From NCBI GenBank assembly GCA_963815455.1, contig CAWFGO010000001.1, positions 1,671,602 to 1,735,601 of the forward strand: a stretch of 64,000 bases of DNA. Reading direction: 5' to 3'. Made by a program: the position numbers. How positions within the stretch are numbered: the stretch's first letter is position 1; each line of letters begins with the position of its first letter. Positions 1-64,000 of the stretch are shown here, one piece after another. Source of the stretch: an uncultured Verrucomicrobiae bacterium. Its GTDB lineage: Bacteria > Verrucomicrobiota > Verrucomicrobiia > Chthoniobacterales > UBA10450.

Positions 1-3000
1 ATCGGGCGTATAGCCCAACGCTCGGGAGATGGATCAGCCGGGATCCAATGGGAGAAAGCGAGGGACCGAATCTCTATTCTTACGTTGCAAATGATCCGAT
101 CAACATGATTGATCCACTGGGCCTCTTTAATTGGAGAAGATGGGTTCCGCGAGGCCCTTGGTTTTTCGGTACATGTTGCAATAGGTCCGGCGGGATAGAA
201 TGGGCTTCTGTCGCGGGCAGGGGCTGGGTGATGCTTGCGCCTGGCGAGTGTGTTGGCCTTTCAAATATGCAGGATTGCGAGGGGATGACATGCGGCGGCG
301 GATTTTATTATGTAAGCGGGCTTTCGGTCGGCTCGTGCAGCACACCAGGTTGCGACCGGTGGCCCGGAACGAAACGCAGGTGGACTCCTGATCCTACCAC
401 AAGAGATCCCGGCGGCATGTCACCGACTAACGTAGGAATGGGCTTTGGAGATGTCCCGCCAGGCTACCAGTATGGCCCGCGCCGTCCGCGACCTTGATCT
501 GCCATTACCTGTCCACATGAGAAATTCTTTATCCATGATTCTGATTAAAGGTGGCGTAGCATCCTTGGCTGCACTTTTGGTTGCGATGCTGGTGTTGAAG
601 GCTTGGCCGAGCCTCTTCGGAAGAGATTGGAACAAGACGTTCGCCAGTTTAACGGATGGAGGGTGCGTCCGTGCGCTGGTCCATGGGTATACGGATAGCC
701 CTTTAGCCGCATGGTACACGAGCTTGCTTTGGAAAAAAGAAGAGGACAAGTGGTTCGTGTACCATTTGAATCATGACGCTTACTTCCAAGACTATAAGCT
801 GTCTCAGCGCGGCTTATATATTGACGTTTTCTGCAACGGCCGGCTGTTAGCAACGTTGAACACGTCTAATAATGAGCTTTTCCACGCCGGCCAAAACATT
901 CTCTACAAGAAGCCTATTGATATTATTCATGACGCGAATCTCGATGATCGCGAAAGATGGACGTATTGGATCAATCGCGAATGAAAAACTTGCTTTTTAA
1001 CTTCTATCTCAAGCAGAGGCACCCCCTTTCCAGGCGGCCCAATACGGTGGCAATAACAGCGCCCAGCAACAGCGGGCGGGGAGCAAAACGGGTCGTGTCT
1101 GTATTCTTGTCATAAAAGGACCGAATGGTCGTGGGGTCCACTTCGTTTGCGACGTTAAGCGAGTTTCCTCCGTTCGATTCCGCGGCTAACAGATGTCGAA
1201 AGAGATGGACCGGTCGAGAATCTCAGCGTTTTGTACTGACGTTGCATTAACGCGATTTTTTTTCCAGAATCCGCTCGCGCGCTTTTGATAACCTTCGTCG
1301 TTCGGATTTAGAGAGGCCCTGGAAACCGCGCTGCGAAATCTTTTCCAGTAGCGGATCGATCTCTTCCGTCATCAACTGGTGGGGACTCATGCGAGCGTAG
1401 CGCTCCGCCTCCGCTCGGCGACGATTGAGGAAGCGCTGGAGGAACGACGGGCCGCCGAAACCCAGCAGATGCGCATACAGCCAACCCGCTGCGCAGCCGC
1501 CGAGCAGAGCGCTGTGTCCGACTATTCCGGTACGGCTTGTGCAAATCAGGACGAGCGCAACCCCGACCGTTGCATAAGCGAGGTGTTTTATTTTGATGCG
1601 GACCGGCAAGACGAAGATCAGCGCGTTGAGTTCGAGCTCGGGTAGAATGGTTGCATAGGCGACAACCACAGCCGCAACGCCCCCGGTCGCGGCCAAAAGA
1701 ATAGTGTCGGTCGGCATCAAAAAAAGATGCCCCAGCTCGCCGCCGATTGCTCCCGACAGATAGAGGTAAAGAAAATGGCGCTGGCCGAGAATGGATTCGA
1801 CGTCGCGTCCGAGCAGGTAAAGCATGAACATGTTGCCGGCAAAAATCCACGGGCCGCTGTGGAGAAAAATGGCGGTGGCAAACTGCCAGGCGTAGGCGTC
1901 GTGCACGCCGCGATCGCTGATGCCAAGATACTCTCGGACAAAGCCGGGTTGCCAGGCTTCGAGGACGAGCTGTGCGATAAAAACGGCGACGTTGGTGCCG
2001 ATCAGGCAGAACAGGACGACGCGATGATGGTGCGTCCAATGCCGTGTGTAAAACGGTGCCTTGCGGCCAGAGAGACGCATTGCACGAGAATATCGCAGAC
2101 GACTTTAAATGTCATCAGAATCCGGCTTTCAAGCGCAAAAAGTTACGGGTTGGCCACTTTAAACCTGTCATTCCGAGCGAAGTCGAGGAATCCCGTGGCA
2201 ATACCTCCAGCGGCGCGACGGGAGCCTTCGGCTTCGCTCAGGATGACCGAGCGCGGGCCGGCGCCAGGACCCGCAGGGCTTTTTCCTGCATCCCGAATTC
2301 GACCGGGCATTTCCCGACCAGTTCGCCGTCGAGCTCGACCGGGACATCCTGGTCGCTGGTGACGCGCAGACGCCGGGTTTGGAAATATTCGATCTCGGGA
2401 ACGCGAATGTCGGAACTAAACACGACGTCCTGGAGATACTTGATAATTTCGAGGTAGCCGAGCCGTTTGAAAACGACGACATCGAACAATCCATCATCAA
2501 TAACGGCGTGTTTGAAAAAAGGAAATGGCCCGCCGTAAAGACGCCCATTGCCGATCAACACGAACGAGCCTTCATCGATCGTTGCATTTTCCGATTCGAT
2601 GAATAGTCGCGGTGGCTTTCGGGCCGCGATCTGCGCCGCCGAGATCAAGTAGCTGAGGGGGCCGAAACTGCGCTTTAAACGCGAGGCTGGTTTCTTTGAC
2701 CACCTGTGCATCGAGACCCACGCCACCGAGCTGAACAAAATACTTTCCATTCGCGTTTGGAAGATCGACAAGTCGCGTGTGCCCGCGCTGGATGATATCC
2801 CAGCAACGCTGGAGATCGTTCGCGGGCAGGCCGAGTTCCATGGCGAAGACGTTTACCGTGCCCATTGGCAAAAGACCCAGGGCCGCGTTGCTTCCGGCGA
2901 GCCCGTTCACGACCTCGTTAATAGTTCCATCGCCTCCGGCGGCGACGATCTTTTCGAAGCCTTCCCGAACCGCATGGCGGGCGAGGCTCTCCGCTTCACC

Positions 3001-63000: not shown

Positions 63001-64000
63001 GGGCGTTCCCATCATTTCTCGCCAGCGCTTTCTTGATGAGAAAAGCTTCCACATCTTCCAGGCTCATGTCCTCTAGGCTTCGCGTATCGCCCCGGCCGGC
63101 CGTCAGACCCAGATCGGCCGCCTTGATCTGCGGACCGCGCGTCATCAGGACCGCGCGTTCGATCACGTGATCCAGTTCCCGAACATTGCCGGGGAACAAA
63201 TAAAATTAAGCCGTTCGCGGGCGGTTTCGTCGAACCCGGTAATCTGCTTGCGATACCGTTGAATGTGCTGGCGCAAAAAATGATTCGCCAGCAGCATGAT
63301 GTCTTCCCGCCGGTCGCGCAGCGGAGGCAACGGGACTTCGATCGTGTTCAGCCGGAAAAGCAAATCCTGACGAAAACGACCGGCCGCAACTTCCTCCTTC
63401 AGGCTCGAATTCATAGCGGAAATGATCCGGACGTTTGCCTGCAAGGTTTTTGAAGAGCCCACCCGCTCGAATTCGCCGGTCTCGATCACGCGCAACAGTT
63501 TTGCCTGCTGACTGAGCGGAATATTTGCGATTTCGTCCATGAACAGCGTGCTTTCGTCCGCGAGTTCGAACCGGCCGGCGCGGTCGCTTTTGGCATCCGT
63601 GAATGCTCCTTTCACGTGCCCAAACAGTTCGCTCTCGAAAAGCGTCTGGGAAAGGCCAGACCATGTTTACGGTGATCATCGATTTGGCGGCGCGGGGCGA
63701 AAGCGAATGCAGCGCCTGGGCTACCAGCCCTTTTCCGGTCCCGTTCTCGCCGGTGATCAGCACGTTCGCGTCGGATGGCGCAACTTGTGAGATCATTCCG
63801 ATCACCGGCCGCATGGCCGGCGATTCGGCAATTAGATTTGGCGCGCTCCCGCGAAGAAGTTCGTTCTCGGCTTCCAGTTTGCGGCCGCGGCGGAGCGCCC
63901 CCGCCAGTTCGACTTGCGTCCGCACAATCGCGAGCAACCTCTCGTTGTCCCACGGCTTCGGCACGAAGTCGCGGGCGCCCCGCTTCATCGCTTCCACCGC

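What a model noticed while it worked through the whole genome (the two positions that open the first line are those of the whole stretch)
1..64000. Hyper-abundant 10-mer TGTCGATCTT with the hallmarks of a DNA uptake sequence
The non-palindromic word TGTCGATCTT (reverse complement AAGATCGACA) occurs 1,124 times in this 3.62-Mb genome (about 7 expected) and its octamer core TGTCGATC 2,535 times (0.70 per kb, all contigs); it is the commonest word at every length from 8 to 12. It is spread evenly over the large contigs and both strands, sits in genes mostly in one codon phase, has shifted the tripeptide content of the proteome, and is nearly missing from recently acquired DNA. These are the genomic hallmarks of the DNA uptake sequences of Neisseriaceae and Pasteurellaceae, which are not known from Verrucomicrobiota; ComEC, DprA, ComM and type IV pilus genes are present. 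Thirteen of 36 genera sampled in family UBA10 [...]
Evidence so far: All k-mers counted: 540+584 copies; the 30 commonest 10-mers are all overlapping forms or close variants of this word. Perfect word 1,124 against 3-148 for 28 of its 30 one-letter variants (497 TGTCGATCCT, 275 TGTCGATGTT). Octamer: 19-51 per strand per 100 kb on C1, C2, C3, C5; 1,274 against 1,261 by strand; 2,293 of 2,535 in genes (coding share 0.889); 843+687 of these 2,293 in the phase read V-D or I-D. VDL 818 times (375 expected from residue frequencies), 510 written GTCGATCTT (23 expected from codon usage); KID is the most over-represented tripeptide (3.5x), 380 of 502 written AAGATCGAC (64 expected). Octamer 2 times in 34 kb of integron cassettes (24 expected), 0.08-0.14 per kb in thre The finding spans contig positions 1 to 1735601; this window holds only 1671602 to 1735601 of it. 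[...]
(Added by a program. Inside this text positions count along the whole contig: contig position 1,671,602 is position 1 of the stretch shown here. "Call 12" and the like, gene names such as g00115 and contig names such as C1 are that model's own, and its searches are not shown. The text may have been shortened before it was handed on; [...] marks where a part breaks off. The agent that wrote the report below was given it as the finding of a first reader that could run no searches.)

Follow-up and report, generated by a model that had tools for sequence, protein, structure and literature searches.

The report
Two hyper-abundant words in soil Verrucomicrobia
A family of common uncultured soil bacteria has written two unrelated 9-10 letter DNA words into its genes up to more than once per kilobase; they behave like the self-recognition tags that Neisseria and Haemophilus use to take up their own DNA, but uptake has not been tested and the recognising proteins are unknown.

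Summary
Counts confirmed: AAGATCGACA/TGTCGATCTT (W1) occurs 1,124 times (5-31 expected; 79-fold over codon-shuffled genes), strand-neutral, mostly in genes. It was written by point mutation, partly against amino-acid conservation, is kept exactly in relatives, and is missing from integron and restriction islands. It is confined to part of one Chthoniobacterales family (nearest named records: Ca. Udaeobacter), up to 1,600 per Mb.

New here: a second, unrelated word, GCCTAACGA (W2), is raised in 66 of 68 family genomes, including this one; two genera carry both at high density. Each word avoids itself at short range but not the other. W1 forms head-to-tail pairs 15-16 bp apart in richer relatives (not this genome); this genome's clade has its own AGG dialect. 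The pattern suggests two separate protein recognisers of double-stranded DNA.

Best reading: uptake-sequence-like molecular drive (0.55). Against: no terminator pairs, no ComEA found here, no receptor found, competence genes do not track W1. The family-wide methyltransferase probably targets GTAC, absent from both words. The scan noted each word before in other genomes; my searches found no paper.

The parts
1..64000 (.). Dispersed W1 word (TGTCGATCTT / AAGATCGACA): 18 perfect copies at 2761, 4933, 5534, 5564, 6200, 6671, 23531, 23694, 24962, 25616, 27603, 28534, 29184, 31216, 36626, 44799, 48471, 49358 (6 on +, 12 on -); 35 octamer copies. Part of 1,124 genome-wide.
5406..6725 (+). 439-aa housekeeping ORF (looks like Kdo transferase WaaA; name recalled, not tested) with four perfect W1 copies: three read as VDL (5534, 6200, 6671), one on the other strand (5564)
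5534..5573 (.). One of only four W1 pairs within 60 bp in the genome (opposite orientation, 30 bp apart, inside a gene, not a terminator)
24542..26041 (-). ORF with two W1 copies read as IVDL (24962, 25616)
6680..15768 (.). 9.1-kb stretch without the octamer, among the 12 longest gaps on C1; short, accessory-looking ORFs
44022..44030 (+). The window's single copy of the second family word W2, GCCTAACGA (113 in the genome)

Best explanation
W1 (consensus A[A/G][G/c]ATCGA[C/g]A[A/T], inner TCGA strict) is a recognition word for a protein that acts on double-stranded DNA during gene transfer, most likely at the DNA-uptake step of the type IV pilus/ComEC pathway. Fragments carrying the word enter and recombine more often, so point mutations towards the word spread wherever the protein sequence tolerates them (molecular drive). 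W2 is an older, family-wide word with its own recogniser. SHOWN: abundance, strand neutrality, point-mutation origin, exact conservation, absence from acquired DNA, dialects, self-avoidance, independence of the two words, preferred head-to-tail spacings in relatives, presence of pilus/ComEC/DprA/ComM genes. INFERRED: that a protein binds the words, that it binds double-stranded DNA as a dimer or polymer (from the 15-16 bp and 10-13 bp spacings), that the step is uptake, and that the force is drive rather than selection.
For: 79-fold excess over codon-order shuffle, with a graded profile: inner TCGA variants about 1-fold, outer variants 3- to 72-fold. No replication-strand bias: C1 first 1.0 Mb 363 vs 361, C2 276 vs 249 with negative GC skew, C5 114 vs 98 with positive skew. 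Residues coded by W1 are less conserved in W1-poor G021 (0.57 and 0.55 vs 0.71 and 0.75 expected; 32 and 42 sites). Where the tripeptide is kept, W1-rich relatives keep the exact word: G043 19 of 21, G032 16 of 22, G006 7 of 8, three g28 genomes 21 of 21, against 0.07-0.26 expected; G021 5 of 22. This matches what Findlay and Redfield report for DUS/USS (PMC2817400, abstract). Missing from the integron (0 vs 16.3), a type III RM-like block (0 vs 8.5) and a C5 methyltransferase block (0 vs 4.3). Self-avoidance inside genes for the three strong 10-mers: 12 vs 30 (12-40 bp), 23 vs 41 (40-80), 57 vs 75 (80-160), none beyond; 0 of 8 control words reach p<0.05. This fits the finding that a second USS within 100 bp adds no uptake (PMC7811141, passages). 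Clade-specific AGG dialect in g1+g13 (17/27 and 44/64 vs 3/309 in g28), itself conserved (13 of 25, 11 of 19). Density varies 500-fold within one family and is not monophyletic (AU p=0.0001), which suits a drive better than an essential function. A secreted nuclease-ComEA fusion is in 15 of 17 genomes with W2 >=300/Mb vs 18 of 51 others (kin not independent).
Against: No inverted pairs in terminators: 4 pairs within 60 bp in G000, all inside genes; 5 of 27 close pairs inverted in g28/g7 loci, whereas about half of DUS/USS lie in predicted terminators (10.1101/2025.10.24.684340, abstract and passages). No ComEA-type HhH protein or SNase found in G000 (90% complete; the syntenic site is present and empty), and only 6 of 22 W1-rich genomes have it vs 27 of 46 others. 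ComEC is in 66 of 68 genomes, rich and poor alike. Among 134 pilins of 9 genomes no cluster is confined to W1 genomes and no G000 pilin is strongly basic (top 30 loci per genome pair only); the best candidate failed (37 of 76, absent from g13, g32, g34, g35). ComEC's relative rate does not fall with word density (rho +0.35, p 0.23, 14 genera), and no ComEC column separates rich from poor. comEC of W1-rich G006 is in two pieces. comEC and addAB of G000 hold no octamer (0 vs 1.5 and 4.3). W1 and W2 do not avoid each other (83 vs 60 within 160 bp), so one pathway that accepts either word is not supported.
Confidence: 0.55

Rival explanations
1. Drive at a later step of gene transfer: the word promotes processing or homologous recombination of incoming DNA (Chi-like or HIP1-like boost), not entry.
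For: Would give the same orthologue pattern, self-avoidance and absence from acquired DNA. HIP1 raises transformation partly in a homology-dependent way (10.1101/2024.09.10.611283, abstract). AddAB-like genes are present, RecC/RecD not found. Explains why pilins and ComEA do not track W1 and why two words can act independently.
Against: No strand skew as for Chi (Chi skew recalled); the excess (79-fold here, 1,600 per Mb in g28) is far above what I recall for Chi; helical-phase spacings point to double-stranded DNA, whereas transforming DNA reaches the cytoplasm single-stranded (recalled).
Confidence: 0.17
2. The words are binding sites of two sequence-specific chromosome proteins (nucleoid organisation or self-marking), kept by selection.
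For: Exact conservation, even spacing and cooperative head-to-tail spacings suit oligomeric DNA-binding proteins; selection for chromosome structure has been proposed for HIP1 (PMC5861425, abstract).
Against: No 8-200 kb periodicity on C1 (p=0.5); gaps of up to 26 kb are tolerated; density ranges from background to 1,600 per Mb, and G024 and G040 have nearly neither word.
Confidence: 0.15
3. Methylation-linked mismatch repair creates the word, as proposed for HIP1.
For: W1 holds GATC and TCGA; an orphan N4/N6 methyltransferase is conserved in 67 of 68 family genomes; MutS is present; model in PMC4390886 (abstract).
Against: Neither word is a palindrome; W2 holds neither GATC nor TCGA; no Dam-type D12 enzyme; the only C5 methyltransferase lies in a word-free RM-like block; the orphan enzyme is in rich and poor genomes alike, five of its 12 best phage hits (47% identity) lie beside genes annotated R.RsaI (target GTAC recalled), and GTAC is the most avoided 4-mer (0.53), so its target is probably in neither word; GATC and TCGA are only 1.3-1.5-fold raised; local repair gives no reason for self-avoidance to 160 bp or for 15-16 bp pairs.
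Confidence: 0.07
4. Codon or peptide preference, a mobile repeat, or an assembly artefact.
For: Two reading frames (KID, VDL) hold 774 of 975 coding copies.
Against: 12-fold excess even with the protein sequence held fixed; all six frames used; flanks show only codon periodicity; found in many independent assemblies; spacers of tandem pairs differ, so they are not duplications.
Confidence: 0.02

Closest known systems
DNA uptake sequences of Neisseriaceae (DUS, receptor ComP)
   Same: Non-palindromic 10-mer with a strict short inner core and a weaker 1-2 base extension; hundreds to thousands of copies; strand-neutral; dialects by clade; shifts tripeptide content; absent from acquired DNA.
   Different: Unrelated sequence and phylum; 87% of perfect copies in genes; no inverted terminator pairs; head-to-tail pairs at 15-16 bp instead; a second unrelated word in the same genomes; no ComP-like basic pilin found; uptake untested.
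Uptake signal sequences of Pasteurellaceae (USS, predicted receptor ComN/PpdA)
   Same: 9-10 base core, mostly in coding sequence at tolerant residues; a second close copy seems to add nothing.
   Different: No AT-rich flanking tracts; no terminator pairs; E. coli PpdA gave no tblastn hit in G000 at E 1e-5.
HIP1 of cyanobacteria (GCGATCGC)
   Same: Similar excess, conserved sites in genes, contains GATC, linked in print to pilus genes and transformation.
   Different: HIP1 is a palindrome tied to GATC/CGATCG methyltransferases and is periodic at 10-90 kb; W1 and W2 are not palindromes, no matching methyltransferase was found and no periodicity was seen.
Chi and KOPS (recalled)
   Same: Short non-palindromic words, frame-biased inside genes.
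   Different: No replication-strand skew; far higher excess.

Membership tests
DUS/USS uptake sequences | Short non-palindromic word in hundreds to thousands of copies, both strands | tested here: met
   1,124 copies, 540/584; 79-fold over codon-order shuffle
DUS/USS uptake sequences | Arises by point mutation at tolerant residues; raises its tripeptides; sites conserved | tested here: met
DUS/USS uptake sequences | Missing from recently acquired DNA and rRNA genes | tested here: met
   integron 0 vs 16.3, RM-like blocks 0 vs 8.5 and 4.3; rRNA genes 0 vs 3.4 in all, not significant alone
DUS/USS uptake sequences | Clade-specific dialects around a fixed core | tested here: met
   AGG form in g1+g13; W2 forms GCCTAACAA, and GCCTAACCG in G021 only
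DUS/USS uptake sequences | Inverted pairs in transcription terminators | tested here: not met
   4 close pairs in G000, all in genes; 5 of 27 inverted in g28/g7 loci
DUS/USS uptake sequences | Complete competence machinery | tested here: inconclusive
   ComEC, DprA, ComM, PilB/C/T/M/Q-like present; ComEA not found; ComF and prepilin peptidase not searched
DUS/USS uptake sequences | Sequence-specific minor-pilin receptor | tested here: inconclusive
   no pilin cluster tracks W1 by presence; binding cannot be computed here
DUS/USS uptake sequences | The word raises DNA uptake | not testable with these tools
   needs an assay
HIP1-type repeats | Palindrome | tested here: not met
   neither word equals its reverse complement; CGATCG and GCGATCGC only 1.2-1.7-fold
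HIP1-type repeats | Cognate methyltransferase that follows the word | tested here: not met
   the GTAC target of the orphan enzyme is inferred, not shown
HIP1-type repeats | 10-90 kb periodicity | tested here: not met
   C1 only, block-shuffle p=0.5
Chi/KOPS | Skew to the leading strand | tested here: not met
   equal counts under negative and positive GC skew

The most novel reading that the evidence does not exclude
The Udaeobacter family of soil bacteria runs two independent sequence-specific DNA-transfer filters, each with its own word, dialects and helical spacing rule (W1 pairs 1.5 turns apart, W2 pairs about one turn apart in two genera), which wax and wane separately across genera: uptake-type self-recognition outside Proteobacteria, with two unrelated signals in one genome and recognisers that are not ComP or ComN.
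Probability: 0.45. Interest if true: 0.92.

Novelty: new variant of a known kind. Interest (0 to 1): 0.78.

Why it matters
Non-palindromic uptake words are described for two proteobacterial families, both host-associated. An independent case in abundant soil bacteria would show that sequence-specific DNA uptake is not a quirk of mucosal species, and would give a genomic record of transformation in organisms that cannot yet be grown. The family is a natural experiment: 300 genomes, two words, a 500-fold range of density, a dialect shift and spacing rules. That makes the long-standing drive-versus-selection question, and the search for new sequence-specific DNA-binding proteins, testable by phylogenetic profiling. 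The words are also practical markers for binning and for dating gene gains, and possibly a handle for getting DNA into these cells.

Tried and rejected
Leading-strand skew: none. USS-like AT tracts: none. Long-range periodicity and helical phasing of all pairs in G000: none. Terminator pairs: none. Tandem 15-16 bp pairs in G000 itself: 0 perfect pairs, 0.35 expected, so not demonstrable; relaxed patterns show no clear peak. ComEC presence, ComEC residues and ComEC rate as correlates: no signal. Orphan methyltransferase as cause: universal in the family; a tree of it across rich and poor genomes was not made, so a change of its specificity is not excluded. Pilin g3346 (C3:774985) as W1 receptor: rejected. 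SNase as W1 correlate: looked positive (18 of 21 densest vs 21 of 47), but the hits in G065, G048, G015 and G124 are a 40%-identical paralogue without HhH, G054's hit is unrelated and G010 keeps only a 25-residue remnant, so I do not count it for W1. W1 versus W2 density in the W1 clade without g28: rho -0.34, p 0.09, n 26, not significant. 'W2 fossils' at sites of W2-rich genomes: G000 is not closer than controls. A CAACGCTCAA-type word in G021 is a tandem microsatellite-like repeat, not a third word. Viral scan for the tandem pattern: 3 contigs, none with a match to G000 proteins. No RNA holder was listed for comEC. I first read C1:531-545 kb as one island; its first part is the 23S rRNA gene.
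Full report
OBSERVATION. The window is C1:1,671,602-1,735,601 of a 3.62-Mb, 7-contig, 90%-complete genome. 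It holds 18 perfect copies of TGTCGATCTT against 0.11 in shuffles. Genome-wide there are 540+584 copies against 5-31 under Markov orders 0-4, and the word or its overlaps top the lists at lengths 7-12. I call it W1 and write it AAGATCGACA. In my own gene calls, 975 copies lie in genes against 82 when codons are redrawn synonymously and 12 when codon order is shuffled; 327 read KID and 447 VDL, the other four frames 10-99. Variants of the inner TCGA are at background, while AGGATCGACA (72-fold), AACATCGACA (24-fold) and AAGATCGAGA (11-fold) are raised. Position 11 is A or T in 88%, and there are no distant AT tracts. Counts are equal on both strands under negative and positive GC skew, and no 8-200 kb period was found on C1.

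TAXONOMIC RANGE. The 80 nearest named comEC loci come mostly from soil Verrucomicrobiota records, 22 labelled Ca. Udaeobacter (Chthoniobacterales); those 22 loci hold 16 W1 in 217 kb. In 301 family genomes the count runs from about 3 to 1,600 per Mb; 14 of 36 genera have a genome with at least 150 per Mb (densities are my division by rounded sizes). Eleven genomes of that scan are unpublished (G002, G007, G014, G135, G155, G172, G201, G209, G243, G257, G267). Only the tallies include them; genus g15 counts as rich on G014 alone, and g3 as poor on G002 alone. With one mismatch allowed, 252 genomes of 64 other families of the class stay at or below about 156 per Mb, like the four W1-poor family members in that call (102-141), against 708-1,990 in the five rich ones.

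A SECOND WORD. In 656 kb around comEC from 34 W1-poor genomes the top 9-mer is GCCTAACGA (W2): 204 copies against 3.6. It lies on both strands and never in the two frames that would read a stop. Whole-genome counts are 60-2,519 in 66 of 68 family genomes (G024 13, G040 22) against 2-19 in 12 genomes of other families of the order. G000 has 113. That is only 1.6 times the tool's backwards control (72), but 82 lie in genes against 8.6 in codon shuffles, and 6 of 13 sites are identical in G021. Genus g28 has both words (about 1,200-1,600 and 300-620 per Mb), as does g7 (1,000 and 120). A 61-genome tree of ComEC, TrmB and MsrA and a 14-genome tree of 10 genes put W1-poor genomes between the rich ones; holding G000, G027, G051 and G006 together is rejected (AU p=0.0001; quick tree, no outgroup). 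So W2 is probably ancestral to the family, and W1 rose or decayed more than once.

HOW THE SITES AROSE. In aligned orthologues (best BLAST hit, at least 50% identity), residues coded by W1 are less often kept in W1-poor G021 than the same residues elsewhere (0.57 vs 0.71, 32 sites; 0.55 vs 0.75, 42 sites). Where the tripeptide is kept, rich relatives keep the exact word (G043 19 of 21, G032 16 of 22, G006 7 of 8, three g28 genomes 21 of 21; expected 0.07-0.26), G021 5 of 22. Perfect 10-mers are kept in 15 of 37 (G032) and 17 of 43 (G043) sites against 8% and 7% of controls, but 3 of 83 in G021. The AGG form is a dialect of g1+g13 and is itself conserved. The octamer is absent from the integron (0 vs 16.3), two RM-like blocks, both rRNA genes and addAB; density does not fall steadily with conservation (0.60, 1.12, 0.96, 0.71 per kb over four identity bins).

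SPACING RULES. Inside G000 genes the strong 10-mers avoid each other to 160 bp (92 pairs vs 146), while 8 control words do not. In 198.5 kb of g28, W1-W1 pairs are depleted at 40-320 bp and W2-W2 pairs are few (4 vs 11 under 160 bp), but W1-W2 pairs are not depleted (83 vs 60). Of 27 close W1 pairs in g28 and g7 loci, 18 are head-to-tail at 15 or 16 bp with varied spacers, inside long open frames; 5 are inverted. In the 15 genomes whose matches were fully listed (150 of 1,065 matches shown), 61 of 101 same-direction pairs have period 15-16 (3.55 expected per period) and none 11-14 or 19-24; in G006, 29 of the first 49 of 71. Some of these are homologous sites, so they are not independent; the out-of-frame period 16 argues for DNA geometry. 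G000 has none (0.35 expected). W2 pairs are scarce overall (147 vs 219; g28 2 vs 30) but peak at 11 bp in g6 (11 vs 1.6) and 10-13 bp in g4 (25 vs 7.8). I infer two separate recognisers that bind double-stranded DNA and can pair head-to-tail, 1.5 turns apart for W1.

MACHINERY. G000 has ComEC with OB-like and lactamase domains, DprA, ComM, three PilB-like and five PilT/U-like ATPases, PilC, PilM, three secretins and about 17 pilin-like genes. The family's ComEA-type protein is a secreted SNase-HhH fusion, found in 33 of 68 genomes, in 15 of 17 with W2 at 300 per Mb or more, but in only 6 of 22 W1-rich ones; G000 has the site without the gene. No pilin, ComEC residue or ComEC rate follows W1. 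The one family-wide methyltransferase (67 of 68) has phage homologues beside R.RsaI-annotated genes, and GTAC is the most avoided 4-mer; I infer a GTAC target, in neither word.

MECHANISM. Uptake-type drive 0.55; drive at recombination 0.17; chromosome-protein sites under selection 0.15; methylation-linked repair 0.07; trivial causes 0.02; the rest unassigned. It works like a DUS/USS, but it is not filed as one: terminator pairing fails, and receptor and uptake are unshown.

LITERATURE. Seen: 10.1101/2025.10.24.684340 (first fifth of the text and passages); PMC7811141, PMC12616744, PMC3630211, PMC1939737 (passages); PMC13756078 (abstract and Discussion); PMC2817400, PMC5861425, PMC4390886, 10.1101/2024.09.10.611283 (abstracts). 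No supplements were read; k-mer tables in supplements could list these words. No paper in the library holds any of the four word forms, and searches listed none on such words in Verrucomicrobiota; subscription papers are not covered. Chi/KOPS properties, the RsaI target and the WaaA name are recalled. Earlier notes of this scan report a 10-mer and the 9-mer separately in other genomes. I found W2, before that look-up.

Noticed in passing
G000 C5:165,524-166,831 and C1:532,069-535,337: 16S and 23S rRNA genes lie on different contigs, far from contig ends, one copy each: unlinked rRNA genes.
   Followed up: partly
window 2236-2247; genome-wide: REP-like element containing GTCATCC(C/T)GAGC, 119-135 copies per orientation, with small GIY-YIG-like ORFs elsewhere in the genome.
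   Followed up: no
G000 C1:1,049,482-1,050,321 (L002): Orphan N4/N6 methyltransferase conserved in 67 of 68 family genomes, mostly 67-85% identical; probably GTAC-specific.
   Followed up: partly
L076:7968-9041 (G027) and relatives: Secreted staphylococcal-nuclease plus ComEA-HhH fusion with one or two FxxFFH motifs in the linker; frameshifted in G024, which has nearly neither word; a 25-residue remnant in G010.
   Followed up: partly
L107 (G027 C6:54,230, minus): Major-pilin paralogue with a long basic C-terminal tail in a genome of the densest genus; its counterparts in G006 and G059 lack the tail.
   Followed up: no
G523 C2, C7, C13, C21: In a genome of another family, most of the 19 W2 copies cluster in a few short stretches about 0.5 kb apart: contamination or DNA from this family.
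   Followed up: no
G000 C2:629,493-635,677: addAB-like genes hold no W1 octamer (4.3 expected), one of 11 regions tested.
   Followed up: no
L032, L095 (G024): CAGGCCGAC (10) and CCGGACCAA (7) are raised in 36 kb of G024, which lacks both words; possibly another word, small sample.
   Followed up: no
G000 C1:1,475,514-1,498,761: Integron integrase with a cassette array, free of the word.
   Followed up: partly
G000 genome-wide: Many genes are split by single-base frameshifts (for example in pilin and Verru_Chthon cassette genes), probably long-read errors; GTCGAC, AGATCT and GGATCC are avoided about two-fold.
   Followed up: no
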